Below, piece by piece: positions 1,372 through 43,429 of a stretch of DNA of 64,000 bases; position 1 is the first letter of the stretch, and each line of letters opens with the position of its first letter. The translations under genes were made by a program, and so were the position numbers. The stretch comes from Minisyncoccota bacterium. GTDB lineage: Bacteria; Patescibacteriota; Minisyncoccia; Phycocordibacterales; PALSA-1337. Below the pieces are notes generated by a model. It saw only the letters and a program-made list of their open reading frames with translations, did no database searches and was not told the origin of the DNA. The DNA is taken from NCBI GenBank assembly GCA_041663145.1, contig JBAZRG010000001.1, forward strand, positions 254,984 through 318,983, in the 5' to 3' direction.

Positions 1372-3567
<2,196 letters not shown>

Positions 3568-3623
3568 TTAATTATAGCATTTTAGCTTCATCAATGGAAG
3601 CACATTTTTTCACATTATTATGT

Positions 3624-3902
3624 CTAATGGAGGGTAACAATGCCTATCTTTCTTTCGATCTTTCTCGTACGTTCTTTGAGGATTTTATGTTCTCTCATGG
3701 TCGTGTAATTGAGATAAATGTTGTCGAGCTGGTTTTGCACACCATTGAATCTATAGTCCATTCGATTTTCCAAATCACCAAACCTCTTTTCCATTTTATT
3801 TTCCAAATCACCAATTCTCTTGTTTATACTAGTTTCTAGACGCAAAATCATTCCACCTAGATCGTCAATGGTTATTCTGTTTGTTTGAATCTTGGTTTTC
3901 AT
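3624..3902 (-). CDS. hypothetical small coiled-coil protein with tandem 11-aa repeats
   Basis: 92 aa; in-frame tandem DNA repeat about 33 nt x2 (RIGDLENKMEK / RFGDLENRMDY); no homology assignable. Confidence 0.3.
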   Translation of the reverse strand: MKTKIQTNRITIDDLGGMILRLETSINKRIGDLENKMEKRFGDLENRMDYRFNGVQNQLDNIYLNYTTMREHKILKERTRKIERKIGIVTLH

Positions 3903-4092
3903 CTGAATGTTTCGCCAATTACGATATAAGGAAATACGTCTAAATACTTTCTTGATTATATTTTATCAAAAATTTAATAATCAAATCAAGTTACATAGAT
4001 TCAAATTATGTCTCGTAATGAAGTAGATTACAAAAAAAGTATTACAATCGTAATTTTCATATCCCGAATCATCTTAAAACCTAATCATTGCA

Positions 4093-6135
4093 CTACCTCA
4101 CTTCCCAACCCTCTTTTTTAATACTTACATTTATAGCATTCATAACTTTTGATACTTCATCGTCTGTAAGAGTTCTATCCATCGATTGGAAAACCATACG
4201 GAAAGCGTATGACACTTTTCCTTCTTTTTTGAAAGTATCGAATAACAAATGCCTGACTAATAAATCCGATGCATCGGCAGATTTTATTGCTCCTTCTATT
4301 GTATTCCATACACCATTCGAATCGATAGATTCAGGAACAAAAACAGCAATGTCTCGAACTATAAAAGGATACTGTGAATATTTCGTATATCTCTTATCAG
4401 ATAACGCTTTGAATTCAAGATCTATAGCCGACGTAGATGTGACTGAAGAAGATTTCGATCCTGTATTTGATACAGATCGAACGAGACTTAAAATTTCACT
4501 AAGATCAATTTCACAAGCATAACTTTGATTTTGCGAGATAATTTTCGGAACGGAAAGTCCTATATTCAATCTTGCGAAAATTTCTTTTATAGCATTTTCG
4601 ATAATAACTCCTCCGTTTACACCTTTCATCTTTTTGACTTGAGCTGAACCGAGAGAAAGCACTACATTTTCTTGATTATGAGTAAAGACTCGACCGATCT
4701 CAAATATCTTAATTGAGTCGAGACCGAGTAGATCTGCATTTAAAACATTTTTATGAACGCAAGAAAGTATACCTTCAGTTAAGTTTTTTCGAATAAACGC
4801 CTTATCTTTGGCAAGAGGTTTTAAAGTCTCAATATCGCCTTTTTCAACAAGTGAATAGAGGCTGACTTCGGAAAAACCGATACCGGTTAATATATTCTTC
4901 AATCGTTCCGAAACAGAAAAGTTCAATTCTGTAATCGGATCCGTAGTTGCTTTCGCTGGCAATTTTCCGGCAATCTTTTCATAACCATATACACGACCGA
5001 TCTCTTCGACGATATCTTCACGAATTCTCAAATCTAATCGTTCGTGCGGTATAGTCAGAGACCATATATTCCCTTTTGCGACGACACCCATGTTCATCTT
5101 CATCAGAATATTTTTTATTGTATCTGCAGGAACTTCTATGCCTAATCTTTCTTTTACATACGCGGGATCAAAATCAACAATCACGTCTTTGGATTTATGC
5201 TGATATTCATCAACAATCGGACCAAAAACAGCATTCGGATATCGTTCTTTTATAAGTGCACAAGCATTATTCATCCCATGAATAGCCAATTCCGGAGTGA
5301 TCTCATTTTCAAACCTCTTTGAAGAATCGCTTCGAATATCGTATTTGGTGGAAGTACGTCTCACTGCCGTCGGATCAAAATTGGCGGATTCGATAATAAT
5401 CCTTTTTGTGGATTCCGAGACTTCAGCTCTCTTCCCTCCTTTGGCTCCAGCGATGACAAGTGGTCCATCTTCATCGGCAATGACATTGTCATCTGAAGTC
5501 AAAATGATCTCCCGACCATCGAGAAGTACGATCTTTTCTCCTTCTTTGGCGGACCTTACCGTGATAGGACCCTTAACCTTATCTGCATCGAAAGCATGCA
5601 AAGGCTGACCGATGTCATACATCACATAGTTTGTAATATCAACAATAGGATTTATAGAACGTTGACCAATAGATTCTAAAGCACTTTTCAAATATGCTGA
5701 AAAATTATTTGATCCTGCCTTCGCTAAAGCTACGGCAGGCAAGCCTGCTTTCGGCACGGCTACTGGAGGCAAGCCTGCTTTCGAATTTATCTCGATACAT
5801 CTAGCTATATATCTTCGGCAAAATTTATCATTCTCCAATTTTACAATAGGACAATGATCTGCATTGGCAGATAACGCCTCCACATATCGTTTCTTTGGCA
5901 ACATATCAGTTAAGAATGATATCTCATCAGCGATACCCTTATGTGACAAAGCGTAGTGGGCTCTGTCAGGCAGAACCTTGATATCCAAAACTGAATCAGC
6001 ACTACCGTCAGTATTTTTTATATCCTCGACTCCTTCAACCTCAAAAGAATGCATAGCAAAAAGATCAGCGAGCGTATCCGCATCTGGGATTTTTGCATCA
6101 AAATATGTTTGTAACCACTTGTGAGAGACTTTCAT
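4093..6135 (-). CDS. pheT: phenylalanine--tRNA ligase beta subunit (short, domain-reduced form)
   Basis: 680 aa; MKVSHKWLQTYF start, B3/4, B5 and anticodon-binding-like C-terminus; overlaps pheS stop; contains internal 30-nt tandem duplication. Confidence 0.9.
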   Translation of the reverse strand: MKVSHKWLQTYFDAKIPDADTLADLFAMHSFEVEGVEDIKNTDGSADSVLDIKVLPDRAHYALSHKGIADEISFLTDMLPKKRYVEALSANADHCPIVKLENDKFCRRYIARCIEINSKAGLPPVAVPKAGLPAVALAKAGSNNFSAYLKSALESIGQRSINPIVDITNYVMYDIGQPLHAFDADKVKGPITVRSAKEGEKIVLLDGREIILTSDDNVIADEDGPLVIAGAKGGKRAEVSESTKRIIIESANFDPTAVRRTSTKYDIRSDSSKRFENEITPELAIHGMNNACALIKERYPNAVFGPIVDEYQHKSKDVIVDFDPAYVKERLGIEVPADTIKNILMKMNMGVVAKGNIWSLTIPHERLDLRIREDIVEEIGRVYGYEKIAGKLPAKATTDPITELNFSVSERLKNILTGIGFSEVSLYSLVEKGDIETLKPLAKDKAFIRKNLTEGILSCVHKNVLNADLLGLDSIKIFEIGRVFTHNQENVVLSLGSAQVKKMKGVNGGVIIENAIKEIFARLNIGLSVPKIISQNQSYACEIDLSEILSLVRSVSNTGSKSSSVTSTSAIDLEFKALSDKRYTKYSQYPFIVRDIAVFVPESIDSNGVWNTIEGAIKSADASDLLVRHLLFDTFKKEGKVSYAFRMVFQSMDRTLTDDEVSKVMNAINVSIKKEGWEVR

Positions 6136-32816: not shown

Positions 32817-35137
32817 TTACACAATTTCGCAAACTCCTGACACACACGCCAACTCTTTCTTCAGATCCGTCTCGTTTTGTTTTTCGTAAGTTATAATCTT
32901 CGAATAATCCACATGTTCCAAGCGCTTTGCAAGCTCTTTATATTTCTTTTCATCTATAGACTCATACGGAGCCAGCTTATAGACAGCATCCTCGCGTGGC
33001 AAGAATGACAGACCTCCGCAGATATCCCAATTTTCATAGACCCAGTTTGCAACCGCTATCCATTCATCATTACCTATAGAGATAGTGACTGAAGGATTGT
33101 GTTCTGTATAATTTTCCTTGACCATTTTCCAATACTCCAACTGCTGCAATGCTGTCTGATCATCTCGAAAGACCGAACCAGCTGGTGCTTTGACTGGAAA
33201 CTCTAGAACGTAGGTATTGGCGGACTCGGGTGATTGGCCAACCTCCGGGTTATAAGGTACACCTTGATCTTTGAGCATTTTGAATAACGAATCGGTCGAT
33301 GAGATCCTGATGCGACGAATATAGAACTTGGAGTGTCTCGGGTGCATACCTGAAGAACAATCAACAGTTTGTGACAAGGTTCCGGACGGTTTTACACAAG
33401 TTATAGCAGTTGATTCCCCTATTCCAAAACGTTTTGCATACTCTTTATTTATTCGTATTGCCTCAGCTTTTAGTCTACGCATGACCTCTGGCTTACGGAC
33501 AGCTGGACTATCCCACTGACCAGTGATAGATACTCCGAGCAATCTTTCACGTTCACAATGATCTTTCCATTCTTTGGACAAATACTGGAAATTTGTAAGA
33601 GATGACTGATACGTACCGAGAATGGTCGCGATTCGCATCTTCTTCATGAGAGTAGCTTCGGTATCTTCGGCTCGAGCCACGATCTCGGACAGATTACAGA
33701 ACTGTTTTGATTGAAGAATAATCTCACCACACGGATTTGTACCGATAGGTCCGATGATATGTTGACCAGTCGAATCGAAATAGCCCTTGTATTCTTTCAA
33801 AACTTTTATGCGCCTCTCTGGAAGAGTTTTTGCCAATGAACCGCGATTGAATATCCCACGTTCACCAGACCTACTCTCGACAAGTGCCATCCATTCCTTC
33901 AAAAATTCTTCATTTGTCGGCTTGTTGATATATACAGCGGAATTGTTAGCGAGCATTCTGTGAGGATGAGTCATGTAGAAAGCACCCTTCTTTGCATCAC
34001 GAATGAGTTCATCGCCGAGATCAGACAAAGAAATCATGGCGCTTCGTCTCACACCGCCAGCCACCACACAATCTCCGATCATACAGATGATATCGTGCAG
34101 ATCGAGCGGGCGTAGACGTTTACCTTGGCGAGCCAACATGATTTGTCTCGTAAATGACAGAAGTCGAATAAGAGGTGCCGGACCAGATGATTTGCCACCC
34201 ATAACTTTGAGACGCGCGCCTTCAGGGCGTAATTGGGAGAAATCAAAATCGATGTCACTGCCGGAAGCCCAGGTCTTCATACCTAGGACAAGCGAATTTG
34301 CCCATCCTTCTTTGCTATCTGGAACAACGTGTACAGGAAGTTTATCGCCATTTTGCATCATAATCTGCGGAAACTTCTCGACATTGGCACTTTCGACTGC
34401 CCAACCGCAACCTGTACCATTCATAGAGATATGAATGATCTCACCGAGATCTTGGAATGATTCTGGAGCGATAAAAGAACAGTTATATGCACAAATATTG
34501 TCTCTACGTGCTGGAGTGCCAGCAAACTGTAAGAGTCTCATCGACGGCATGGCCTGGTGATTTAGGATAGCTTCTCTAATCTCTTTGTATTCGCTTTCTT
34601 TGAGCTTATTGCCGAGATTCTCCTTCATGAAAGTGAGATACCGATCGACAGTCTCTATCCATGTCTCACGACGATTTTCAGAATCTATCCAGCGAGCATA
34701 AGAACGATAGTAAACGAACTCACCTAAAGCATTTCTAAAATATTTTTTGGAATCAGTAGCGAGCTTGCGAACATTTTCCGGAACTTCAAAACCTACAGAA
34801 CGCAGTTTTGCTCGTTCTTCACGATAAATAACGTAGTGTTTGGCGGCTTTGACATAGTCAGAGCGCATTAGCTCGGCCTCAACTATATCCTGAACACCTT
34901 CAACTGTAGGGATGAAGTTAGAAAATTTTCTTTTGATCCTAGTAAGCTCATTTTGAACCTGAGTTGCAACAACTCCAGCCTCTTCGATGGATCCTTCATT
35001 GACCGCGTTCATGCCCTTCCAGATGGCATTTGTGATTTTGGCAAGATCGAATGGAACGATTCGACCGTCTCTTTTGATAATCGTGGGGATTGAAACAACC
35101 TTACCCGCGGTTGTGGCGGATTTTTTCTTCTTTGGCA
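32817..35137 (-). CDS. ribonucleotide reductase, large catalytic protein with N-terminal ATP-cone (probably adenosylcobalamin-dependent class II)
   Basis: NPCGEI active-site motif, ATP-cone (VPFDLAKI...), C-terminal Cys pairs, no adjacent NrdB; start placed at ATG giving MPKKKK (the ORF track starts at an upstream TTG). Confidence 0.8.
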
Positions 35138-35330
35138 TATGTGTGCGTAGGCGGCTACGCAAGTGCTAATGTCTTATAATTTTTCGATCAATTTAACTGC
35201 TATTTAATTTCATTGTACAACCTATGACACTCTCCAACAATAAATTATCCTGTGGATAGTGACTTTCGTCACAATTTTTTCAGTTTGTCTGTAATGAAAA
35301 ATAATAATTATGGATAAATTGAGTTTTTGA

Positions 35331-35792
35331 TTAAAAATTATCAAAAATCAACTGAGTACCAGTAGCCAGACTCATTTTAGCAGCAGTTCCAGCATTCAAT
35401 TCTAAAACAAATTTTATCGGGCTTGGCGGATAAAAAGAATTTGGAAAAGAATCGACTGGAATATTCGAAGTGATGCCGACTACCTTCATATCTTCATCGA
35501 TCCAAATCATATCTAAAGGAAAATTCATATCATTCATCCAAAATCCGGGCGTATTTGGTTGAGTATATGCAAACAACATACCATGATTACTTGCTAGGGT
35601 CTCTCGATTACTCAAGCCCAATTGCATCGACGACGGCGTATCTGCTATTTCGACTTGGATTTCTCCCGAAGGAGCGGATATCTTAGTTGTTTTGACGTTA
35701 ATGGAATCATCATCTCTCGAAACAAAGACAAGACTAAAAATAAATATTGTTAGAATAGCAATTATTATCGAGATCTTTATAGAATTTTTCAT
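35331..35792 (-). CDS. DUF192 domain protein (COG1430), exported
   Basis: 153 aa; N-terminal TM/signal; ...GMLFAY...GFWM...PLDMIWID pattern. Confidence 0.65.
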   Translation of the reverse strand: MKNSIKISIIIAILTIFIFSLVFVSRDDDSINVKTTKISAPSGEIQVEIADTPSSMQLGLSNRETLASNHGMLFAYTQPNTPGFWMNDMNFPLDMIWIDEDMKVVGITSNIPVDSFPNSFYPPSPIKFVLELNAGTAAKMSLATGTQLIFDNF

Positions 35793-35864
35793 GACATTAC
35801 GTCTTGATACGACCTTATTATCATTGTATTATTGAATATTATATAACAAATTAAGAAATAATCT

Positions 35865-36278
35865 ATGTATTCAATCAATTTTCTGCCAATCCTAATTTCA
35901 TCAGTGGTAGCTTTTGGTCTCGGAGCATTCTGGTACTCCCCTTTTATCTTTGGTCGAGAGTGGATGACGTTAACAAAGATCTCCAAATCAGACATGATGG
36001 CAACTCAAGCCAAAGGTGTTTGGAAATCATATCTTATTCAATTCATCGCGACATTTGTGACATTCGCCGTCCTCGGTTTTTTGATCTCAGCCTCTGGTGC
36101 AAATTCAGCTGCTGATGGTGCATTTCTAGGAATAATCGTCTGGATCGGTTTCGTCCTAACTGACGCATCAGGCGCTTTGTTATGGGAACGCAAGCCCATG
36201 AAGCTCATCCTCATCAATACCACAATCACTTTAATGACTCTTCTCGTCGGCGGAGCGATCATTGGAGCCTGGAGGTAG
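35865..36278 (+). CDS. DUF1761 family membrane protein
   Basis: 137 aa; 4 TM, AFWYSPFIFG motif. Confidence 0.55.
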   Translation: MYSINFLPILISSVVAFGLGAFWYSPFIFGREWMTLTKISKSDMMATQAKGVWKSYLIQFIATFVTFAVLGFLISASGANSAADGAFLGIIVWIGFVLTDASGALLWERKPMKLILINTTITLMTLLVGGAIIGAWR

Positions 36279-36331
36279 GTTGGGGTGATTGAAGTAAAAA
36301 ATAAATAACGAATTTTTGGTATACTGAGACA

Positions 36332-37180
36332 ATGAAATCTCTGTTGCGATGGTTAAAAAGAATATTATATTTTGTCTTGGCTATTGTAATTCTTGTCGGA
36401 TGCCTATTCACCATCGTTCATTTTATAACCAAACCATCAAATGATCGTGATTGGAACACAGATCAGAAAACCCTACCTTATGCAGAAATAAACAACAATC
36501 TGATATCGGTTTACAATATCAGGAATTTCTCATACGCCTCAACGACAAGTTATATGCCGAATTACTACGATAAAGTGTTTGATTTGAATAAACTGAAAAA
36601 AGTTTGGTACATAGTGGAACCATTTTCAGGTATACCTGGTTCAGCTCACACATTTTTGAGTTTTGAATTTGAGGACAATCGGTTTATTTCCATATCAGTC
36701 GAAATCCGTAAGGAAAAAGGCGAAGCGTATAGTCCAGTCAAGGGTCTCTTCAATAAATACGAGCTAATGTATGTAGTGGCTGACGAAAATGATGTCGTCA
36801 AACTTCGCTCAAACTATCGTAAGGATCTGGTATATGTTTATCCAGCAAAAGCGACAGTCGAAAAGGCCCGCGCTTTATTCTTGGACATGATAGAGCGAGT
36901 AAATGATCTTAGAGATCACCCTGAATTTTATAATACGATCACAAACACTTGTACCACAAATATCGTAAAACATATCGATAAAATTACTCCCAATAGAGTG
37001 CCTTTATTCAATCTGCGTATTCTCTTGCCAGCGAACTCTGACAAGCTCGCATATGAGCTCGACCTCATTGATACTGACCTCCCTTTTGAAGAAGCTCGTT
37101 TGCGATACTTTATAAACAATCGTGCCATGAAATACGCTGACGATCCTGATTTTTCTGTAAAGATCAGACAGGGAAAATAA
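36332..37180 (+). CDS. hypothetical membrane-anchored exported protein (possibly DUF4105/Lnb-N-like)
   Basis: 282 aa; N-terminal TM then soluble domain. Confidence 0.35.
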   Translation: MKSLLRWLKRILYFVLAIVILVGCLFTIVHFITKPSNDRDWNTDQKTLPYAEINNNLISVYNIRNFSYASTTSYMPNYYDKVFDLNKLKKVWYIVEPFSGIPGSAHTFLSFEFEDNRFISISVEIRKEKGEAYSPVKGLFNKYELMYVVADENDVVKLRSNYRKDLVYVYPAKATVEKARALFLDMIERVNDLRDHPEFYNTITNTCTTNIVKHIDKITPNRVPLFNLRILLPANSDKLAYELDLIDTDLPFEEARLRYFINNRAMKYADDPDFSVKIRQGK

Positions 37181-37257
37181 ATTCCGTGATATTTATTCAA
37201 CTATACACTCTGCCGTAGAATGCACCATTTTCTCTCCAAATTACGTATAATAGGTGT

Positions 37258-37665
37258 ATGAATAAAAAAACATTATTTTTTGGTGCGGTGATAATCATCA
37301 TTCTTATAGGTATTTATCTTGTCTTTAGGACAGGCGACATTCCAACCGATTCCGCCCTAGATACAAACAATCAAAATAGCTCGAGTACGGAGCAATCAGT
37401 TACACAACAATCAGATATTCAGGAATCAGAATACACACTTGCGATTGTCAGTTCTCATAATACCAATCAGAATTGTTGGATGGTAATTGATAATAAAGTA
37501 TATGATGTCACCTCCTATATTGCATCTGGCCAGCACAATAAAGATATATCAAAAGGTTGTGGCATCGATGCCACATCAATGTTCGATAAAGAAAGAAAAC
37601 ATCAAGACAACAAGGCTCAAAATCTACTGAGTGGACTTGAGATTGGCACTCTAAAAATAAATTAA
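37258..37665 (+). CDS. membrane-anchored cytochrome b5-like domain protein
   Basis: 135 aa; core YTLAIVSSHNTNQNCWMVIDNKVYDVTSYIASGQHNKD...ATSMFDKERKH aligns to cyt b5 fold (HPGG replaced by SGQHN). Confidence 0.5.
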   Translation: MNKKTLFFGAVIIIILIGIYLVFRTGDIPTDSALDTNNQNSSSTEQSVTQQSDIQESEYTLAIVSSHNTNQNCWMVIDNKVYDVTSYIASGQHNKDISKGCGIDATSMFDKERKHQDNKAQNLLSGLEIGTLKIN

Positions 37666-38856
37666 ATGTTTCAATTATCCGATTTGCTTTATGATATTGG
37701 AAAATGGATGGGTATTGCCGGTTTTATTCTTTTGACCTTGCTTATTTTTTCTGGAGATACAGCCAGATTTTGGGATAGATATATCGGACTGGATAAGATT
37801 ATAAAATTCCAAAAGAAATTCTCGTACTTTGTCGCCTTTTTTGTCATCTTACATCCTCTTTTATTTATAATAGCTAGGAAGACCGTATTTGGATTTCTAA
37901 TTCCGAATTTTTCATATGTACCGCTGGCACTTGGGATCATATCTCTCTATATATTCATCGTGGTCATGATCGCCTCGTACTTTTATAAAAGGATTTCAAA
38001 TCTGGTTTGGCAATATATACATGTACTGACATACATACTGTTTTTCTTTTCAATCTATCACGCATTCAATTGGGGATCAGACAGGGATGATTTCATCCTC
38101 ATTTACGTAGTGTCTCTGATCATGATATTAATCGGGATAATATACAGAACTCAATACAAAATTAGAAACAAAATATCAAATGCCTTCACGGTCGACAGTA
38201 TCAAACAAGAAACATCTGATACGTATACCTTGAATCTAAAAAGCAAAAAACCATTTGATTTCAAAGCTGGTCAGTTTTGTTTTTTGAGAATAAACAAGAA
38301 TAGACTTTATGCGAGACATCCATTTACGGTTTCAAGCGCGCCGAATGATAACGTCACTTCATTCACGATCAAACATGCTGGAAGGTTCACAGAGACGGCG
38401 AGGACTCTCAAGACTGGTGAAAAAATATCAGTCGAAGGACCTTTTGGTGTCTTCATTCCGAAACCTGACAAAGATCTGGTATTTATCGCCGGTGGTGTCG
38501 GGATAACACCCTTTATGAGTATTTTGAAAGATAGGATAAATAATAATTCAAATCAAAACATCACTCTCATTTATTGTTCCCGCGGAAAAGATGACATAAT
38601 CTTCAAAAATGAAATTGATTCTATAAACAAGAGCTGGTTCAAGAAAATCTATGTGTTGAATAGTACGGACGGCGCTCTATTCCCTTGCGAACAAGGATAT
38701 ATCTCCAATAAAATAATAGAAAAATACGTCAACAACATCCAAAATTCCCTTTACTATATCTGCGGTCCTGAAAAGATGAAGAATTCAGCCAAAAAGATTC
38801 TTGGAGATTTGAAGGTGGATAAGAGCAGTATTTTTACGGAAGATTTCTTTTGGTAA
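37666..38856 (+). CDS. ferric reductase/NOX-family flavocytochrome (ferric-reductase TM domain + FAD-binding + NAD(P)-binding)
   Basis: 396 aa; 6 TM with paired His, HPFTVSS (FAD RxYS-like), GGVGITPFMSIL (NAD-binding GGxGxxP), C-terminal CGPEKM. Confidence 0.7.
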   Translation: MFQLSDLLYDIGKWMGIAGFILLTLLIFSGDTARFWDRYIGLDKIIKFQKKFSYFVAFFVILHPLLFIIARKTVFGFLIPNFSYVPLALGIISLYIFIVVMIASYFYKRISNLVWQYIHVLTYILFFFSIYHAFNWGSDRDDFILIYVVSLIMILIGIIYRTQYKIRNKISNAFTVDSIKQETSDTYTLNLKSKKPFDFKAGQFCFLRINKNRLYARHPFTVSSAPNDNVTSFTIKHAGRFTETARTLKTGEKISVEGPFGVFIPKPDKDLVFIAGGVGITPFMSILKDRINNNSNQNITLIYCSRGKDDIIFKNEIDSINKSWFKKIYVLNSTDGALFPCEQGYISNKIIEKYVNNIQNSLYYICGPEKMKNSAKKILGDLKVDKSSIFTEDFFW

Positions 38857-38883
38857 GATAGTGTTTATTATTGTTTTTTCTTC

Positions 38884-39897
38884 TTGACCTCGCTGAAAAA
38901 TGGTAAAATTACTTCCATGAAAGAAACGAGAAATATTATCATGTATGAATCGTCAGACAGCACATTAAAGCTGGAAGTGCCTATTGACGGTGAAACTGTA
39001 TGGCTATCTCAAAAGCAGATGGCTGAGCTTTTTGGTTGTACATCGGAGAATATCATTATTCATCTGAAAAATATCTACGATAGCGGTGAATTGACAGAAA
39101 AAGCAACTACTAAGGAATCCTTAGTAGTTCAAAAAGAAGGAAATAGAAGCGTAAAACGGGATATTCAGATATACAATCTTGATGCCATCATTTCACTTGG
39201 CTATCGCGTCAATTCAATTCGCGGCACACAATTTCGTATCTGGGCTACCAATAAATTGAAGGAGTATATTATCAAAGGTTTCGTGTTGGATGATGAAAGA
39301 TTGGCCGATGGTAAGAAGTCTAGATATTTCGACGAACTTCTTGAACGCATCAGAGCTATCCGCTCCAGTGAGCGAAATTTCTATCAAAAGATCACCGATA
39401 TATATGCAACTAGCGTTGACTATAACAAGGATGTAGAAACAACCAAAATGTTCTTTGCTACAATTCAAAACAAAATACATTTTGCTGTACACGGACATAC
39501 AGCAGCGGAGATCGTTTCCACACGCGCCGACGCAGGAAAAAAATACATGGGATTAACTAACTTCAAAGGTAAGATGGTACGGGAAAAAGACATTTCCATT
39601 GCCAAGAATTATCTGAATGAGGAAGAATTGAAACAACTCAACCTCATTGTTACCCTCTATCTAGACTTTGCCGAACTGCAAGCGAGTAATCGTCGAGCTA
39701 TGACTATGAAAGAATGGGTATCCAAACTAGATGATTTTCTGAAATTGAGCGAGAAACAAATCCTCTCTGGTGCCGGCAAGGTCAGCAAGGAAAAAGCTGA
39801 AGAAAAGGCGCGGAAGGAGTACGAAAAATATCGAAAGACTGAAGATGCGGCTTATATCTCTGATTTCGACAGACAAACGAAAAAATATTTGAAATAA
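38884..39897 (+). CDS. RhuM-family virulence/DNA-binding protein (COG3943)
   Basis: 337 aa; N-terminal region matches RhuM family; true start may be Met12 or Met20. Confidence 0.7.
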   Translation: MTSLKNGKITSMKETRNIIMYESSDSTLKLEVPIDGETVWLSQKQMAELFGCTSENIIIHLKNIYDSGELTEKATTKESLVVQKEGNRSVKRDIQIYNLDAIISLGYRVNSIRGTQFRIWATNKLKEYIIKGFVLDDERLADGKKSRYFDELLERIRAIRSSERNFYQKITDIYATSVDYNKDVETTKMFFATIQNKIHFAVHGHTAAEIVSTRADAGKKYMGLTNFKGKMVREKDISIAKNYLNEEELKQLNLIVTLYLDFAELQASNRRAMTMKEWVSKLDDFLKLSEKQILSGAGKVSKEKAEEKARKEYEKYRKTEDAAYISDFDRQTKKYLK

Positions 39898-39901
39898 GAT
39901 A

Positions 39902-39927
39902 TGTCCACTTTATGGGGTACGGATCAA
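39902..39927 (+). repeat. direct repeat DR-L of GC-rich mini-island (TGTCCACTTTATGGGGTACGGATCAA)
   Basis: 25/26 identical to 42028-42053. Confidence 0.75.
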
Positions 39928-40042
39928 AGATGGACCGTGTCCGCCGTAGCTACGCCATTACTATAAAAAAGTGACCCTCTTTCAGCTTTCGCTTACTCAA
40001 GGGTCACGTGTCTAAAGAACCAACCACTTCAACTGCTACGGT

Positions 40043-40435
40043 TTATGTAGACAGCTCCCCAGGTTCGAACTTGCTCTCATACTGAGGACGAATCCAAATC
40101 GAAGGGACGAGTGTGTCAATGCGGTTTCTCGAAAGAAATTCAACGAAGCTGTGGCGAATTTCAACGAGTGCTGCAGCCTTTTCATCTTCACCAGGGTTGA
40201 AAGGTTTTCCTGTGCCGTATTCGTCTTCACCGGCAGTGTATAGGACCTCGATCTGTACGGGTGCCTCATTGGCCGTGTACCGTACATCGAAGACGTCGAA
40301 TGCGACATCCTCCTTCCCTTCGATACCGAATATGGCTTCGACCGTGGCAATAAGGCTTCGAGACAAATCATCGAATGTCTCATCGATGATCATGTTCGCA
40401 GCCAAACGGTTGAGGTATACCTTGATCTGTGGCAT
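40043..40435 (-). CDS. tautomerase-family-like small acidic protein (GC-rich)
   Basis: 131 aa from Met175 of the ORF; MPQIKVYLNR... N-terminal Pro pattern; the upstream part of the 304-aa ORF is a Cys/His/Arg-rich GC artefact. Confidence 0.4.
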   Translation of the reverse strand: MPQIKVYLNRLAANMIIDETFDDLSRSLIATVEAIFGIEGKEDVAFDVFDVRYTANEAPVQIEVLYTAGEDEYGTGKPFNPGEDEKAAALVEIRHSFVEFLSRNRIDTLVPSIWIRPQYESKFEPGELST

Positions 40436-40461
40436 TACTGATTCCTTTCTTTGGTTGAGGG

Positions 40462-41073
40462 TTAAATCCAATCCATGACCGGCGACTTCTTGCGAAACCG
40501 ATAGACACAGAGTGGAACGGTTATGCAGAAACTCCCGACTGTCATGTAGATTGGCAAAATCAGATTCGCAAGCGTGAAATCGGAAATCGCAAAGAAGTTC
40601 AAGCTGTAGGCGACGGAGAAGAATCCCCACGCAAACGGCCTGTCTTGATCCGGCGACTTCCAAAGAAACGCTATGGTCGGAAGACATGCGAAGCTGTCGG
40701 CAACTATGGCTACATACAACGCGTATTGAACAAGGTCCTTGCTCTCCCTCATAAACAGCCACATCACTAAAGAAATGATGCCGAAGATAAGACAGACAAT
40801 ATCTAACTTGTTCAACTTTGTTCGCTCGTACTGCCGTTTGAAGGCAATAAGAGTGACAATGAGCGGATTCGTGAATCCGAACACCGCAGCCCAGACGTTT
40901 GCTTTTGCGCCGGAGCTTTTGTAAGTCAGGAGCAATGCGAGACCTATGAAAGTCCACAAACTCCAGCTCGTAATGTTCGGATGAACCTTCTTCTGGTAAG
41001 TCCGAATCGCGTAAGGTATTACACTTACAACGATCAGAATGCCGGAAATCAGTCCGATTAATTCTTTGTCCAA
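40462..41073 (-). CDS. hypothetical 6-TM membrane protein
   Basis: 203 aa; six hydrophobic helices. Confidence 0.45.
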   Translation of the reverse strand: MDKELIGLISGILIVVSVIPYAIRTYQKKVHPNITSWSLWTFIGLALLLTYKSSGAKANVWAAVFGFTNPLIVTLIAFKRQYERTKLNKLDIVCLIFGIISLVMWLFMRESKDLVQYALYVAIVADSFACLPTIAFLWKSPDQDRPFAWGFFSVAYSLNFFAISDFTLANLILPIYMTVGSFCITVPLCVYRFRKKSPVMDWI

Positions 41074-41208
41074 GGATTGCTCCCTTCTTGGTTAATTGTT
41101 TTATTGTGAAGAGCTGAAACTCTTAGGGGCACGACATCTCTGTCATGATCCCAGTTGAGTGGAGGATTGTAAATGGAACACAATCCTCCTTTATGAAACC
41201 GAAACGTA

Positions 41209-41880
41209 TCAGTTTGCCCGCACAATGGTATAGGGGTAATAACCAATTGTTGAATCAGTACCCCATGCTTCCAGGGTGCAGTCTCGCAGGGTAGCATTAT
41301 CGCCGAAATAGAGACAGCGATATTCTTTCTGCATCCCCAGATGGGTCGAATATGGTCCCCAAACGGGAAACTTTCCCTTGAAGACAAACAATACGCCACT
41401 GTCGCCGAGTCTCGTAGGACCATTCGTTGAAACAAGCCGTTCAACCTCTTGCTTCAGGAATGCCAGCGTCTCATCGTCGGTTGCAGTCTTGTACCACTCG
41501 AAGTTGGTCGTCGTGATATCAATCCTGATAAGGACCCTGTTGAAGTTTTCCACGAAGACCATTTGAAGAGGCCGCCCACGGAAGTTTCCGTAGGTGATGA
41601 TCGTGTCATCTCCATCGTGTGCAATGCCGTGTTGAAAAACAGCCGGAGGCATCTGGGGGACATTCGGTCCTTTGACACGATTGAATGCTTCCGAACTACT
41701 TGAGGTGTCCTCGAGCTGAGGCGGCCAGTGCAATTTTTCCAGAGCAACGTATCTCCGTTCCGATGCGGCCAATTGCCTCTCAAGCGAGTCGGCTCGATTT
41801 TTAAATGAGAGTGCGGCACCCAATGACACCGCGATTGCTGCAACGAATGCTATGACTACCAATTTTTGTGTCGTCTTCAT
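41209..41880 (-). CDS. hypothetical secreted protein (GC-rich)
   Basis: 224 aa from Met27; N-terminal signal/TM (MKTTQKLVVIAFVAAIAVSLGAALS). Confidence 0.45.
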   Translation of the reverse strand: MKTTQKLVVIAFVAAIAVSLGAALSFKNRADSLERQLAASERRYVALEKLHWPPQLEDTSSSSEAFNRVKGPNVPQMPPAVFQHGIAHDGDDTIITYGNFRGRPLQMVFVENFNRVLIRIDITTTNFEWYKTATDDETLAFLKQEVERLVSTNGPTRLGDSGVLFVFKGKFPVWGPYSTHLGMQKEYRCLYFGDNATLRDCTLEAWGTDSTIGYYPYTIVRAN

Positions 41881-42027
41881 AACAATGTACTGAGTACTGA
41901 TTTTGTCCGAACCTCCCCTTTTCGAGGGTACTAAACGGACATTTGTTGAGGTATTCAAATCTGGCGGTATTGTAACAAATTACGTAATGAAAGTCAACCT
42001 CTGTCCAATTTACAGCTTGGAAATCTG

Positions 42028-42053
42028 TGTCCACTTTATGGGGTACAGATCAA
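42028..42053 (+). repeat. direct repeat DR-R of GC-rich mini-island
   Basis: TGTCCACTTTATGGGGTACAGATCAA. Confidence 0.75.
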
Positions 42054-42139
42054 TTGCGGAGGCAATACATAGTCGCTATAGCTCCTTGTATTGCACTCTC
42101 GCAAAATATATTCGTTCGCGTTGCTCACTCATTATTTTG

Positions 42140-42224
42140 CGGAGGGTAAGGGATTCGAACCCTTGGTGGGTTGCCCCACACACGCTTTCCAAGCGTGCGC
42201 ACTAGACCGCTATGCGAACCCTCC
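42140..42224 (-). tRNA. tRNA-Ser (anticodon GGA), class II with long variable arm
   Basis: GGAGGGT acceptor, anticodon loop TTGGAAA, variable arm TGTGGGGCAACCCACC, T-arm AAGGG-TTCGAAT-CCCTT. Confidence 0.8.
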
Positions 42225-42331
42225 ATTTACAACATTTACATGATCATTCGTGTGATCAGATTATCAGAGACTACGCACGAAGTCACGCATCATCTTATTA
42301 AAACTATGTGTTGTCCTTTGGAGTTACGGTA

Positions 42332-42504
42332 AGACCCCAACATAATGTTCCCGAAACAATCCGAGTTGCGATTGAGCTTCGAAAAATTACCCGTGTTTGG
42401 TGAAGCCTTGGAACCAAACACGGTTGTAATTTGAGAAGCGATTACGCGATCGAGCACGATCGCCTACTGGGGAGGATTGTGGCGGGAACATTATGTTGGG
42501 GGTC
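42332..42504. mobile_element. MITE copy B (with 26 nt internal palindromic insertion)
   Basis: Same TIRs GACCCCAACATAATGTTCCCG / CGGGAACATTATGTTGGGGGTC. Confidence 0.8.
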
Positions 42505-42517
42505 TATATGTATATTC

Positions 42518-43429
42518 CTAGTTCATATTCATATCTGTACCTCTTAGTGCCGCAACCCTCTCTCCCACCGGCGGATGAGTCATGAAAAGTTTCGAGATGC
42601 CAGAAACTGACTTTGCGCCAAATGGACTCGAAATGAAGAGGTGCGCTGTTGCAGTGTTCGCACGCAACATCGGTGACCCGTAAGCGGAGATTTTTTCTAG
42701 AGCCGAAGCCAATCCTTCCGGATATCTGGTGAGGAGAGCACCACTAGCATCAGCTAGAAATTCCCTCTTCCTCGATATAGCAAGCTTGATAAGTTCAGCA
42801 ACAACCGGAGACAAAACAACAAAAACAATGCCGACCACAAAGAGGATGGCACCGAGTTGTCCCCCGCCACTCCTATTACTACTTCTTCTGCCACCTAATA
42901 TTCCGCGTGTAAATATATTTGCCAAGATCGAAATAAAACCAACCAAGACTACAACGACAGTCTGCAATAATATATCTCGATTCCCGATATGCGAAAGTTC
43001 GTGAGCTATAACTCCAGAGAGCTCATTCGTATCCATCATACCCAAAAGTCCGGTCGTGACTGCTATCGCGGCATGTTCCTTGTCACGACCAGTCGCAAAA
43101 GCATTTGGAGCTGAGTCTTCAATGATGTGAATACTCGGTGCTGGCAGACCTGCAGTTATTGAGAGATTATCCACTACACGAAACAATTCCGGATACTGTT
43201 CACTACTTGCCGGCTTGGCTCCAGCCAAAGCCAGAGATATTTTGTCCGAATACCAATAGCTCGTAACATTCATCACTAGAGCGAAAATGATCGCAACGTA
43301 TAGTATCACTTGTGCATCATAGTAGTAAGAGATAAACCAACCCAGAGCAATAACAACGACCAAGAAAACAGTCATGAGAAACCATGTTTTCCTTACATTG
43401 CTATCTTGATGTGAATACAGAGTCGACAT
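42518..43429 (-). CDS. htpX: zinc metalloprotease HtpX (M48)
   Basis: 303 aa; HELSHI HExxH motif, 4 TM. Confidence 0.85.
   Translation of the reverse strand: MSTLYSHQDSNVRKTWFLMTVFLVVVIALGWFISYYYDAQVILYVAIIFALVMNVTSYWYSDKISLALAGAKPASSEQYPELFRVVDNLSITAGLPAPSIHIIEDSAPNAFATGRDKEHAAIAVTTGLLGMMDTNELSGVIAHELSHIGNRDILLQTVVVVLVGFISILANIFTRGILGGRRSSNRSGGGQLGAILFVVGIVFVVLSPVVAELIKLAISRKREFLADASGALLTRYPEGLASALEKISAYGSPMLRANTATAHLFISSPFGAKSVSGISKLFMTHPPVGERVAALRGTDMNMN

What the first reader, a model, noticed from the sequence alone, without database searches (positions are those of the whole stretch)
37258..38856. Exported cytochrome b5-like protein paired with a NOX/ferric-reductase-family flavocytochrome
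The 135 aa product of 37258-37665 is membrane-anchored. Its core aligns with the cytochrome b5 heme-binding fold (YTLxxVxxHNTxxxCWxVIDxKVYDVTxY), but both canonical His ligands sit in altered motifs (SGQHN, KERKH). The adjacent, possibly translationally coupled 396 aa protein has a 6-TM ferric-reductase domain, an FAD-binding HPFTVSS motif and an NAD(P)-binding GGVGITPF motif, which is the NOX/FRE architecture. An electron-transfer pair of this kind, from NAD(P)H across the membrane to an extracytoplasmic heme protein, is unexpected in a fermentative reduced-genome lineage. It may serve extracellular reduction (iron, oxygen or host-derived substrates) or redox signalling. The flanking genes are DUF192, DUF1761 and an unknown exported protein.
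Basis: partly seen in the sequence, partly recalled or inferred. Interest (0 to 1): 0.52.

Follow-up and report, generated by a model that had tools for sequence, protein, structure and literature searches.

The report
NOX-like electron exporter with tethered b5
A membrane enzyme related to NADPH oxidases sits directly after, and probably passes electrons to, a small heme protein tethered outside the cell; the pairing is real and conserved in ultra-small bacteria and archaea, a 2021 preprint had already noted it, and the final electron acceptor is still unknown.

Summary
37258-37665 encodes a membrane-anchored Cyt-b5 domain protein (Pfam 9e-14). 37666-38856 encodes a Ferric_reduct + FAD + NAD(P) flavocytochrome whose closest solved structure is SpNOX. 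The stop and start codons abut (TAAATG).

- The FRD has 5 TM helices, not 6.
- It has three of the four NOX heme histidines. The inner-heme TM3 His is a near-invariant Gln (Q49), in the same register as MsrQ R77.
- The pair is not unusual for this lineage. The family is widespread in CPR bacteria and also occurs in DPANN archaea. A 2021 preprint already reported Cyt-b5/ferric-reductase colocalisation in 185 CPR genomes, with unknown function.

New here: the gene slot directly upstream of the FRD is modular. It holds b5 in 24 of 55 loci, a type-1 cupredoxin in 20, and a Rieske lipoprotein plus DsbD_2 in 3. Related FRD-DH proteins carry fused extracytoplasmic cytochrome c domains.

Best reading: an NAD(P)H-driven transmembrane electron exporter that reduces a tethered one-electron carrier. 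The terminal acceptor is unresolved. I rate it a new variant of a known kind, of moderate interest.

The parts
37258..37665 (+). Gene for the 135-aa membrane-anchored cytochrome b5-like protein (the proposed extracytoplasmic electron carrier)
   Evidence: ORF. Pfam Cyt-b5 9e-14. Best PDB profile match is 1CXY, a bacterial cytochrome b5 homologue, at 1.4e-20. [quoted passage not shown] Paceibacterota.
37270..37326 (+). N-terminal signal-anchor helix of b5 (about aa 5-23, preceded by KK)
   Evidence: Single hydrophobic segment within aa 1-30. Relatives have the same anchor or a lipobox such as LSGCG or LSACS.
37327..37428 (+). Ser/Thr/Gln/Asn/Asp-rich linker of about 34 aa between the anchor and the b5 domain (flexible tether)
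   Evidence: Sequence RTGDIPTDSALDTNNQNSSSTEQSVTQQSDIQES. This stretch is variable and gapped in alignment A1.
37429..37653 (+). b5 heme-binding domain (aa 58-132). Candidate axial ligands are H93 (37534-37536) and H115 (37600-37602). Invariant Cys are C73 (37474-37476) and C101 (37558-37560).
   Evidence: Pfam match covers residues 61-132. Ligand and Cys conservation. Both Cys align with Cys in 1CXY. Codons checked.
37663..37668 (+). TAAATG junction: the b5 stop is followed directly by the FRD start (probable translational coupling)
   Evidence: In relatives the upstream partner ends between -11 and +82 nt of the FRD start, and the stop-to-stop frames often overlap.
37666..38856 (+). Gene for the 396-aa FRD-FAD-NAD(P) flavocytochrome (NOX-like transmembrane electron exporter)
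   Evidence: Pfam. Best PDB sequence match SpNOX 5e-24. AF2 model pLDDT 92.9. Foldseek top hits are SpNOX (E 1e-22, TM 0.67), then DUOX1, NOX2 and NOX5.
37666..38178 (+). 5-TM ferric-reductase domain. Outer-heme ligands are H63 (37852-37854) and H132 (38059-38061). Inner-site residues are Q49 (37810-37812), K50 and H119 (38020-38022). Inter-cofactor aromatics are F97 and F126.
   Evidence: Helices 4-31, 42-71, 85-105, 112-136 and 140-171. Conservation: H63, H119 and H132 in 120/120 and Q49 in 119/120. Register versus SpNOX H69/H83/H129/H142 and MsrQ R77/R78/H91/H151/H164.
38179..38460 (+). FAD-binding lobe with the HPFT motif (38317-38328)
   Evidence: FAD_binding_8 and FAD_binding_6 hits. The motif matches the H[PSA]F[TS][LIMV] filter quoted. 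Codons checked.
38461..38853 (+). NAD(P)H-binding lobe with GGVGITP (38491-38511) and the C-terminal aromatic tail EDFFW
   Evidence: NAD_binding_1 1.6e-18 and NAD_binding_6. [quoted passage not shown] E392, F394 and F395 are invariant and W396 is nearly invariant.
35865..37180 (+). Upstream same-strand genes DUF1761 (35865-36278) and Lnb_N domain protein (36332-37180). They may be co-transcribed, and whether they belong to the system is uncertain.
   Evidence: Pfam. DUF1761 recurs next to the FRD in L006, L010 and L012. Lnb_N is not a conserved neighbour. No terminator-like site lies on the + strand between 35865 and 38856.

Best explanation
The two genes encode a two-component transmembrane electron exporter. 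The 396-aa protein oxidises cytoplasmic NAD(P)H on its C-terminal FNR-type FAD/NAD(P) module. It passes single electrons through its 5-helix ferric-reductase domain to an outward-facing b heme held by H63 and H132. That heme reduces the heme of the b5 domain, which is tethered to the outer face of the membrane by an N-terminal anchor and a flexible linker of about 34 residues. The b5 protein then acts as a mobile one-electron shuttle to a terminal acceptor that is not encoded in an identifiable way. What is shown: domain content, fold, topology logic, conservation, adjacency, interchangeable partners and natural fusions. What is inferred: cofactor occupancy, direction of electron flow, physical docking and the acceptor. 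The inner redox site (Q49/K50/H119) is not a bis-His heme site. By analogy with MsrQ and STEAP it probably holds a flavin, or else a heme bound through His119 only. My guess for the terminal acceptor is an extracellular oxidant such as Fe(III), Cu(II) or O2, or an envelope protein, which would give a quinone-free organism an outlet for reducing equivalents.
For: Domains and motifs are. SpNOX is the closest relative by sequence and by fold, and the model is confident. The outer-heme pair, H119 and the inter-cofactor aromatics are conserved. Published work shows SpNOX has an exposed outer heme, reduces cytochrome c directly, and has an unknown physiological acceptor. The b5 protein has a signal anchor, and its relatives have anchors or lipoboxes. 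They also share an invariant Cys pair that aligns with Cys in 1CXY. A b5 gene lies directly upstream on the same strand in 23 of 54 loci from other species plus the window, with abutting or overlapping start and stop codons. In the reciprocal scan, 14 of 80 b5 loci have an FRD directly downstream, and these include 4-His and Arg-type FRDs. The same slot holds a type-1 cupredoxin in 20 loci, whose closest PDB relative is the tethered electron-transfer cupredoxin domain of Cu nitrite reductase at 2e-11. It holds a Rieske lipoprotein plus DsbD_2 in 3 loci. The wider family contains fusions with the topology signal/TM, then cytochrome c domains, then a 5-TM FRD, then the dehydrogenase domain. This is the same topology that the split b5 + FRD pair implies.
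Against: There is no biochemical evidence of any kind. No usable model of the complex was obtained. One inner-site His is missing, so the FAD-to-outer-heme path depends on a cofactor that has not been identified. The two b5 His are displaced from the canonical ligand positions. Most exported b5 relatives found in metagenomes have no FRD beside them, so b5 is not an obligate FRD partner. About six related FRD loci show none of the three recognised carrier genes directly upstream. CPR bacteria are generally thought unable to make heme (my own knowledge, not tested here), so cofactor supply is an open issue. No terminal acceptor gene is conserved.
Confidence: 0.68

Rival explanations
1. The large protein is a true NADPH oxidase. 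It reduces O2 to superoxide or H2O2 at the outer heme, as SpNOX does in vitro and eukaryotic NOX do. The b5 gene is a bystander or a regulator.
For: SpNOX, DUOX1, NOX2 and NOX5 are the closest full-length structures. The FAD and NADPH motifs pass the published NOX filters.
Against: It fails the four-His filter that defines bacterial NOX. The residue four positions after the outer TM3 His is an invariant Phe (F67) where NOX enzymes have the conserved His. Carrier genes of three different cofactor types occupy the upstream slot. Even for SpNOX, O2 is not established as the physiological acceptor.
Confidence: 0.1
2. The pair is an assimilatory metal reductase in the FRE/STEAP style. Electrons end on extracellular Fe(III) or Cu(II) to make the metal importable, and b5 (or cupredoxin in other genomes) is the metal-facing site.
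For: FRE and STEAP members of the same superfamily are ferric and cupric reductases. Some related loci carry HMA-DsbD_2 fusions and ArsR-type regulators. The preprint authors also list Fe3+ and copper as candidates.
Against: No metal transporter is a conserved neighbour, and the window has none of these genes. SpNOX ferric reductase activity is negligible. This reading is compatible with the best explanation rather than an alternative to it, because it only specifies the last step.
Confidence: 0.2
3. The b5-like protein is a heme-scavenging receptor for an organism that cannot make heme. The FRD reduces or helps to import the captured heme, rather than running a steady electron flux.
For: It is an exported heme-binding fold in a lineage believed to be a heme auxotroph (my own knowledge). 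Its ligand loops are non-canonical.
Against: The interchangeable partners are a copper protein and an iron-sulfur protein, which are electron carriers and not heme binders. Both b5 His are conserved as expected for a stable bis-His cytochrome. The fused homologues carry covalently bound c-type heme domains.
Confidence: 0.05
4. The adjacency is an accident of a horizontally acquired island, and the two proteins do not work together.
For: GC content is lower across 35000-39500 than in the flanks, and a RhuM-family gene follows.
Against: Adjacency is conserved in 23 other loci across CPR, DPANN and unclassified MAGs, with coupled start and stop codons. It recurs with divergent FRD subfamilies. 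Fusion proteins exist.
Confidence: 0.02

Closest known systems
SpNOX (Streptococcus pneumoniae NADPH oxidase; PDB 8QQ7, 8QT6)
   Same: Same three-part architecture (FRD TM domain, FAD lobe, NAD(P)H lobe) and about the same length. It is the best sequence and fold match. The outer-heme His pair, the TM5 inner His and the inter-heme aromatics align. Its outer heme is exposed and can reduce a protein acceptor, cytochrome c.
   Different: SpNOX has 6 TM helices and four heme His (H69/H129 inner, H83/H142 outer). This protein lacks TM1 and has Gln at the H69 position. No dedicated partner gene is described for SpNOX in the papers read here. This family has one directly upstream.
MsrQ (YedZ) of the MsrPQ system, with Fre as cytoplasmic reductase
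   Same: Same three-His pattern in the same register: MsrQ R77-R78...H91 and H151/H164, against Q49-K/R50...H63 and H119/H132 here. MsrQ carries one outer heme plus a flavin in the inner site, and it delivers electrons to a periplasmic protein partner.
   Different: MsrQ is a domain-only protein that depends on a separate reductase, whereas here the dehydrogenase is fused. The first position is Gln rather than the strictly conserved Arg. The partner is a b5 (or a cupredoxin or Rieske protein) and not the molybdoenzyme MsrP. None of the neighbour proteins scanned matched a molybdoenzyme family.
STEAP1-4 metalloreductases
   Same: FRD proteins with a single outer heme and a flavin in the inner site. 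They have lost the inner TM3 His, and STEAP uses a Gln in the inner site. They are ferric and cupric reductases.
   Different: STEAP are eukaryotic. The STEAP Gln replaces the TM5 His, not the TM3 His. Their NADPH domain is an unrelated N-terminal module. They have no protein acceptor.
pFre/cytb5 gene clusters of CPR bacteria (bioRxiv 10.1101/2021.11.17.468889)
   Same: This window is an example of what that preprint counted: a PF00173 gene within 10 kb of a PF01794 gene in a CPR genome (185 of 7,645 genomes). The preprint proposes a membrane complex of unknown function.
   Different: The preprint centres on MAPR-like, tyrosine-ligating cytb5MY proteins with extra b5-like genes and two-component regulators, none of which is present here. 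It states the colocalisation is absent outside CPR. In the passages I read it does not describe the His/Gln pattern, the 5-TM form, the cupredoxin or Rieske alternatives, or DPANN members.
Ectothiorhodospira vacuolata cytochrome b558 (PDB 1CXY), a prokaryotic b5
   Same: Best PDB match of the b5 family profile (1.4e-20). Both family-invariant Cys align with Cys in 1CXY.
   Different: In the alignment 1CXY reads NHPG across the first ligand loop, the canonical b5-type motif, where the window protein reads SGQH. 1CXY is a soluble protein with no known partner (my own knowledge). The window protein is membrane-anchored and is paired with an FRD.
Microsomal NADH-cytochrome b5 reductase plus cytochrome b5
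   Same: An FNR-type FAD/NAD module reduces a b5 heme. b5 reductases are among the PDB matches of the dehydrogenase half (2EIX 2e-14).
   Different: In that system both partners face the cytosol and contact each other directly. Here a transmembrane cytochrome domain lies between them, and the b5 is predicted to be outside the cell.

Membership tests
Ferric reductase domain (FRD) superfamily, three-domain 'long' bacterial form | Ferric_reduct TM domain followed by FAD- and NAD(P)-binding domains | tested here: met
   PF01794, PF08022 and PF00175/PF08030 all score above their curated cutoffs. NOX-type fold.
Ferric reductase domain (FRD) superfamily, three-domain 'long' bacterial form | All four canonical heme His (stated for long forms by Zhang et al. 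2013) | tested here: not met
   There are three His. The NOX2 H101 / SpNOX H69 position is Gln in 119 of 120 relatives.
Bacterial NOX (criteria of Hajjar et al. 2017) | [quoted passage not shown] | tested here: met
   HPFTV at residues 218-222 and GVGITP at 277-282.
Bacterial NOX (criteria of Hajjar et al. 2017) | Two bis-histidyl motifs (His-X12/14-His) on TM3 and TM5 | tested here: not met
   The TM5 pair H119-x12-H132 is present. TM3 has only H63.
Bacterial NOX (criteria of Hajjar et al. 2017) | Six transmembrane helices | tested here: not met
   Five helices in the AF2 model. The N-terminus is about 35-40 residues (one helix) shorter than in 6-TM relatives.
NOX-type oxidases (NOX versus FRE signature of Zhang et al. 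2013) | Extra His four residues after the outer TM3 His (NOX2 His119), associated with O2 reduction | tested here: not met
   The position is F67, invariant in 120 of 120.
NOX-type oxidases | NAD(P)H-dependent superoxide or H2O2 production | not testable with these tools
   Needs an enzyme assay.
MsrQ/YedZ-STEAP group | Loss of the first TM3 heme His while the outer pair (and in MsrQ/STEAP1 the TM5 inner His) is kept | tested here: met
   Q49 / H63 / H119 / H132.
MsrQ/YedZ-STEAP group | That first His is replaced by a strictly conserved Arg | tested here: not met
   Gln in 52 of 66 locus FRDs, Asn in 3, Leu in 1. Arg occurs only in two divergent b5-paired FRDs, L083 and L087.
MsrQ/YedZ-STEAP group | Flavin rather than heme in the cytoplasm-proximal site | not testable with these tools
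   Needs cofactor analysis or an experimental structure.
MsrQ/YedZ-STEAP group | Domain-only protein with MsrP partner (MsrQ), or N-terminal NADPH oxidoreductase domain (STEAP2-4) | tested here: not met
   A C-terminal FNR-type dehydrogenase is fused. None of the neighbour proteins scanned matched a molybdoenzyme family.
Cytochrome b5 (Pfam PF00173, bis-His clade) | b5 fold recognised by profile | tested here: met
   9e-14, 51.7 bits against a cutoff of 23.7. The 56 PDB matches are almost all cytochromes b5 or proteins with a b5 heme-binding domain.
Cytochrome b5 (Pfam PF00173, bis-His clade) | Two axial His at the HPGG and VGHS positions | tested here: inconclusive
   H93 and H115 are present in all 23 FRD-adjacent relatives, but they lie +2 and +1 from the canonical columns. 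Distant relatives have HPGG and PHS. Heme binding was not tested.
Extracytoplasmic prokaryotic b5 (1CXY type) | Export signal and a Cys pair | tested here: met
   The window protein has an N-terminal anchor, and relatives have an anchor or a lipobox. C73 and C101 are invariant and align with Cys in 1CXY. Disulfide formation itself was not tested.
CPR pFre/cytb5 colocalisation (2021 preprint) | PF00173 gene within 10 kb of a PF01794 gene in a CPR genome | tested here: met
   The genes are adjacent. The protein is annotated as from Ca. Paceibacterota.

The most novel reading that the evidence does not exclude
The CPR/DPANN Gln-type FRD family may be a distinct, horizontally shared class of quinone-independent envelope electron-supply modules. 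It would combine a NOX-style fused dehydrogenase with an MsrQ/STEAP-style flavin inner site and one outer heme, and it would feed interchangeable tethered one-electron carriers (b5, blue copper, Rieske). Those carriers would service extracytoplasmic redox chemistry, such as thiol/disulfide or copper/iron handling, in organisms that have no respiratory chain. This reading would also give the first genomic answer to the question of what bacterial NOX homologues reduce in vivo: a protein, not O2.
Probability: 0.3. Interest if true: 0.7.

Novelty: new variant of a known kind. Interest (0 to 1): 0.5.

Why it matters
[quoted passage not shown] The SpNOX structure paper says O2 may not be it. In this family the answer appears to be written in the gene order: a dedicated, exported one-electron carrier sits directly upstream of the FRD gene. 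The carrier is swapped between heme, copper and iron-sulfur versions, and in relatives it is fused to the FRD. That makes the question directly testable with two small recombinant proteins.

The family also breaks the published rule that three-domain FRDs keep four heme His. It combines a NOX-type fused dehydrogenase with an MsrQ/STEAP-type inner site, which bears on how this superfamily evolved.

For CPR and DPANN biology, it points to a common, laterally shared way of moving reducing equivalents out of cells that lack quinones and respiratory chains. The colocalisation itself is not new (2021 preprint), and nothing here establishes function.

Tried and rejected
1. Joint model of b5 + FRD. 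The concatenated chain folded without an alignment gave pLDDT 46 and pTM 0.25, which is useless for docking. No structure-prediction jobs remained for a b5-only model.

2. Stop-codon read-through or a fused protein. The two ORFs are in frame here. In relatives the junction is usually an overlap in another frame, and no fused b5-FRD ORF was seen among 54 + 80 loci or the best 150 representatives. I rejected this as a chance in-frame arrangement.

3. The idea that the b5 anchor helix replaces the missing TM1. The short 5-TM form goes mostly with b5 (19 loci, or 20 counting L004) and the 6-TM form mostly with cupredoxin (13). Exceptions exist both ways (3 and 3), cupredoxin partners also carry an anchor, and the counts are not phylogenetically independent. 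This is unresolved and not claimed.

4. Promoter and terminator scan. Promoter-like sites were no more frequent than in shuffles, and nothing informative turned up on the + strand within the pair.

5. Search of the window for the Dsb, cupredoxin, Rieske, HMA and ArsR modules seen in related loci. None were found, so those contexts cannot be transferred directly to this genome.

6. Terminal acceptor from conserved neighbours. None was found. Neighbours of the broader exported-b5 family are heterogeneous. One sub-family has a GSDH-type dehydrogenase downstream, which does not generalise.

7. Literature. Five of the six queries found no description of this system. None of the 15 listed CPR/DPANN papers contained 'ferric reductase'. 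The b558/b5 query surfaced the one relevant preprint.

8. The word-based homologue search for b5 returned only 11 proteins. The pattern scans were needed to see the family.
Full report
OBSERVATION. Both ORFs are present exactly as described. They are called identically in an independent assembly of the same organism, whose gene order is RNR class II, DUF192, DUF1761, Lnb_N, Cyt-b5, FRD. The 135-aa product matches Pfam Cyt-b5 at 9e-14. The 396-aa product matches Ferric_reduct, FAD_binding_8, NAD_binding_1 and NAD_binding_6, all above the curated cutoffs. The b5 stop codon TAA is followed directly by the FRD ATG, and the two ORFs happen to be in frame. NCBI annotates the identical small protein as a cytochrome b5-like domain protein of a Candidatus Paceibacterota MAG on a 356,648-bp contig. 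The window therefore comes from a CPR/Patescibacteria genome.

THE b5 PROTEIN. It has a KK-preceded hydrophobic anchor (about aa 5-23), a low-complexity linker of about 34 residues, and a b5 domain (aa 58-132). In pairwise alignments with eukaryotic b5, the two canonical axial His columns fall on G91 and K114. The protein's own H93 and H115 lie two residues and one residue later. Both His are present in every b5 found next to a related FRD. More distant family members carry the canonical HPGG and PHS motifs. C73 and C101 are invariant and align with two Cys of 1CXY, the bacterial b5 homologue that is the best PDB match of the family profile at 1.4e-20. Many relatives replace the anchor with a lipoprotein signal such as LSGCG or LSACS. 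Together these features place the domain outside the cytoplasmic membrane. Heme binding and the disulfide are inferred, not shown.

THE FLAVOCYTOCHROME. The best solved relative is SpNOX by sequence (5e-24). By fold it is also SpNOX (Foldseek E about 1e-22, TM 0.67), followed by DUOX1, NOX2 and NOX5. This used a confident AF2 model (pLDDT 92.9, pTM 0.86). The FAD motif HPFTV and the NADPH motif GVGITP pass the published NOX filters. Two features depart from NOX.

First, there are five TM helices. The protein starts at the equivalent of NOX TM2, so its N-terminus should face outward. The positive-inside pattern of the loops agrees with this, which is my own reading of the sequence.

Second, only three of the four heme His are present. 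SpNOX binds its inner heme with H69 and H129 and its outer heme with H83 and H142. Here H63, H119 and H132 correspond to H83, H129 and H142, and the H69 position is Q49. This is not a lesion of one gene. Among 120 relatives, H63, H119 and H132 are invariant and Q49 is present in 119.

The pattern Q49-K/R50...H63 with H119/H132 is in the same register as E. coli MsrQ R77-R78...H91 with H151/H164. MsrQ holds one outer heme and an FMN stacked on H151 in the inner site. STEAP proteins behave likewise with FAD. Zhang et al. state that three-domain bacterial FRDs keep all four His, and that the three-His pattern marks the domain-only YedZ/STEAP1 proteins. This family contradicts that rule. The aromatic residues that sit between the two hemes in SpNOX (F107, Y136) are aromatic here as well (F97, F126). 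An inner cofactor is therefore still expected, but its identity cannot be determined computationally. The NOX-specific His four residues after the outer TM3 His is an invariant Phe (F67).

DISTRIBUTION AND GENE CONTEXT. The FRD has 428 close homologues (E <= 1e-10) in the word-based search, at 52-66% identity among the 120 listed. A scan of species-representative genomes returned 54 close loci. Depositors label these as CPR groups (Paceibacteria, Nomura-, Taylor-, Magasanik-, Peregrini-, Falkow- and Nealsonbacteria, WWE3) and, at 44-57% identity, as DPANN archaea (Woese-, Pace- and Nanoarchaeota) plus one Altiarchaeota MAG.

The gene directly upstream on the same strand falls into classes:
- A b5-like protein in 23 loci plus the window.
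- A membrane-anchored cupredoxin in 20 loci.
- A DsbD_2-type membrane protein preceded by a Rieske lipoprotein in 3 loci.
- None of these in 6 loci.
- The contig ends before the slot in 2 loci.

The cupredoxin has conserved His...Cys-x4-His ligands, with Gln or His at the axial position. Its best PDB relatives are the tethered electron-transfer cupredoxin domains of three-domain copper nitrite reductases (2e-11) and nitrosocyanin. Several cupredoxin-type loci read DsbA - small thioredoxin - DsbB - cupredoxin - FRD. Others have HxlR or ArsR regulators or HMA-DsbD_2 fusions nearby. None of these genes occurs in the present window.

In the reciprocal direction, a metagenome scan with the b5 profile gave 80 loci. 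Fourteen have an FRD directly downstream. These include FRDs with the canonical four His and two with the MsrQ-type Arg. Most HPGG-type exported b5 genes have other, heterogeneous neighbours. Across 66 locus FRDs, the inner-site residue is Gln in 52, Asn in 3, Leu in 1, Arg in 2 and His in 8.

An exhaustive profile search found 2,711 representatives at E <= 1e-30. Among 136 full-length sequences of the best 150, 124 have four His and only 7 (including the window protein) have Gln. The Gln type is thus a small, distinct clade inside a large NOX-like family.

That wider family contains natural fusions. P0159 has a signal or TM segment, then three CxxCH cytochrome c domains, then a 5-TM FRD, then the dehydrogenase. 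P0261 and P0150 carry one c-type heme motif each. c-type cytochromes are matured outside the cytoplasm (established knowledge). These fusions therefore have the same topology as the split b5 + FRD pair.

MECHANISM. The best-supported reading is that NAD(P)H is oxidised in the cytoplasm and electrons cross the membrane through the FRD. The outward-facing heme then reduces a tethered one-electron carrier, which in this genome is the b5 protein. Four lines of evidence support this: the architecture, the export features, conserved and coupled adjacency, and substitution of the partner by two other classes of electron carrier together with fusion proteins. The direction of flow follows from thermodynamics (NAD(P)H is far more reducing than b5 or blue copper centres), which is inference. 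The terminal acceptor is unknown. Metal ions, O2 and envelope proteins are all possible, and the Dsb/HMA/ArsR contexts in relatives hint at envelope thiol or copper chemistry without proving it. I put 0.68 on the exporter-to-b5 model. A dedicated ROS-producing NOX gets 0.1, heme scavenging 0.05 and accidental adjacency 0.02. Metal reduction (0.2) is a possible last step of the main model rather than a true rival.

COMPARISON AND NOVELTY. The protein is a member of the FRD superfamily, and it works like a NOX or MsrQ electron exporter. It is not a NOX by the published criteria: it fails on four His, six TM helices and the NOX His. It is not an MsrQ or STEAP either, because it has a fused C-terminal dehydrogenase and Gln rather than Arg.

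The b5/ferric-reductase colocalisation in CPR is prior art. A 2021 preprint found PF01794 in 1,427 of 7,645 CPR genomes, 185 of them with a PF00173 gene within 10 kb. It proposed an unknown CPR-specific membrane complex and stated that the colocalisation is absent outside CPR.

Several things appear not to be described in the papers I could search:
- The Gln-for-His inner site in a three-domain FRD.
- The 5-TM form.
- The interchangeable cupredoxin and Rieske partners.
- Members in DPANN archaea.
- The cytochrome c fusions as supporting evidence.

My literature access is limited to open-access full text, so 'not described' is provisional. I rate this a new variant of a known kind, with interest 0.5.

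LIMITS. Taxonomic labels are those of the depositors, and some MAG labels ('Saccharibacteria', 'Gammaproteobacteria', 'Bacillota') may be binning artefacts. Locus counts are not phylogenetically independent. Cofactor content, topology, docking and function are all inferred. No complex model could be obtained.

Noticed in passing
window 37246-37251: A perfect TATAAT lies only 6 nt upstream of the b5 ATG (37258), with a poor -35 and no usable Shine-Dalgarno spacing. The b5-FRD pair may have its own promoter giving a leaderless or very short-leader mRNA.
   Followed up: partly
window 37663-37668: The b5 and FRD ORFs are in the same reading frame, separated only by TAA. Relatives mostly have start/stop overlaps in another frame, and no fused ORF was found, so this looks coincidental.
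   Followed up: yes
window 35000-43000: GC is 0.33-0.41 across DUF192...RhuM (35000-39500) and 0.46-0.49 across 40000-43000. A RhuM-family gene (38884-39897) follows the FRD, and tRNA-Ser(gga) lies at 42139-42224 (-). This may be the boundary of an acquired island.
   Followed up: partly
window 40043-41958: Two minus-strand ORFs (40462-41073, a 203-aa multi-TM protein; 41209-41958, 249 aa with an N-terminal anchor) have no significant Pfam family. A 304-aa ORF overlaps the first.
   Followed up: partly
window 35865-36278; L006, L010, L012: A DUF1761 membrane-protein gene recurs within one or two genes of the FRD gene in four loci. It may be an accessory component.
   Followed up: partly
L017, L018, L027, L029, L053 (about 2400-5200): Operon-like arrays of DsbA - small CxxC thioredoxin - DsbB - cupredoxin - FRD occur in CPR and DPANN genomes. 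This is a link between the FRD system and disulfide-bond machinery, in lineages generally thought to lack quinones (my own knowledge, not tested here).
   Followed up: partly
L020, L038, L044 (about 2600-5200): A third partner arrangement in Woesearchaeota: Rieske [2Fe-2S] lipoprotein, then a DsbD_2/CcdA-like membrane protein, then the FRD. In L020 the inner-site residue is Asn instead of Gln.
   Followed up: partly
L040 2171-3985: Here the b5 domain is the C-terminal end of a 604-aa exported, extremely acidic coiled-coil protein. It is flanked by an HMA-DsbD_2 gene and an ArsR regulator.
   Followed up: no
P0159, P0261, P0150 (representative library): FRD-DH proteins with N-terminal fused c-type cytochrome domains (three, one and one CxxCH motifs). 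P0235 and P0249 instead carry a signal peptide and bacterial TSP3 repeats.
   Followed up: partly
L083, L087: These are three-domain FRD-DH proteins with the MsrQ-type Arg-Arg at the inner site, each paired with an upstream b5. They amount to a fused-dehydrogenase version of MsrQ.
   Followed up: no
L148, L150-L152: Gene order is b5, then a four-His FRD, then a 402-aa GSDH (glucose/sorbosone dehydrogenase) family protein (Pfam 1e-89). This may be a different terminal partner in that sub-family.
   Followed up: partly
L051 4142-5192; L054 3401-4593: The FRD genes are split into two ORFs, from a frameshift, pseudogenisation or assembly error.
   Followed up: no
b5 partners across L001-L157: The b5 ligand-loop type co-varies with the FRD inner-site type. 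xGxH b5 goes with three-His (Gln or Arg) FRDs, and HPG(G) b5 goes with four-His FRDs. This may reflect co-adaptation or simply shared ancestry.
   Followed up: partly
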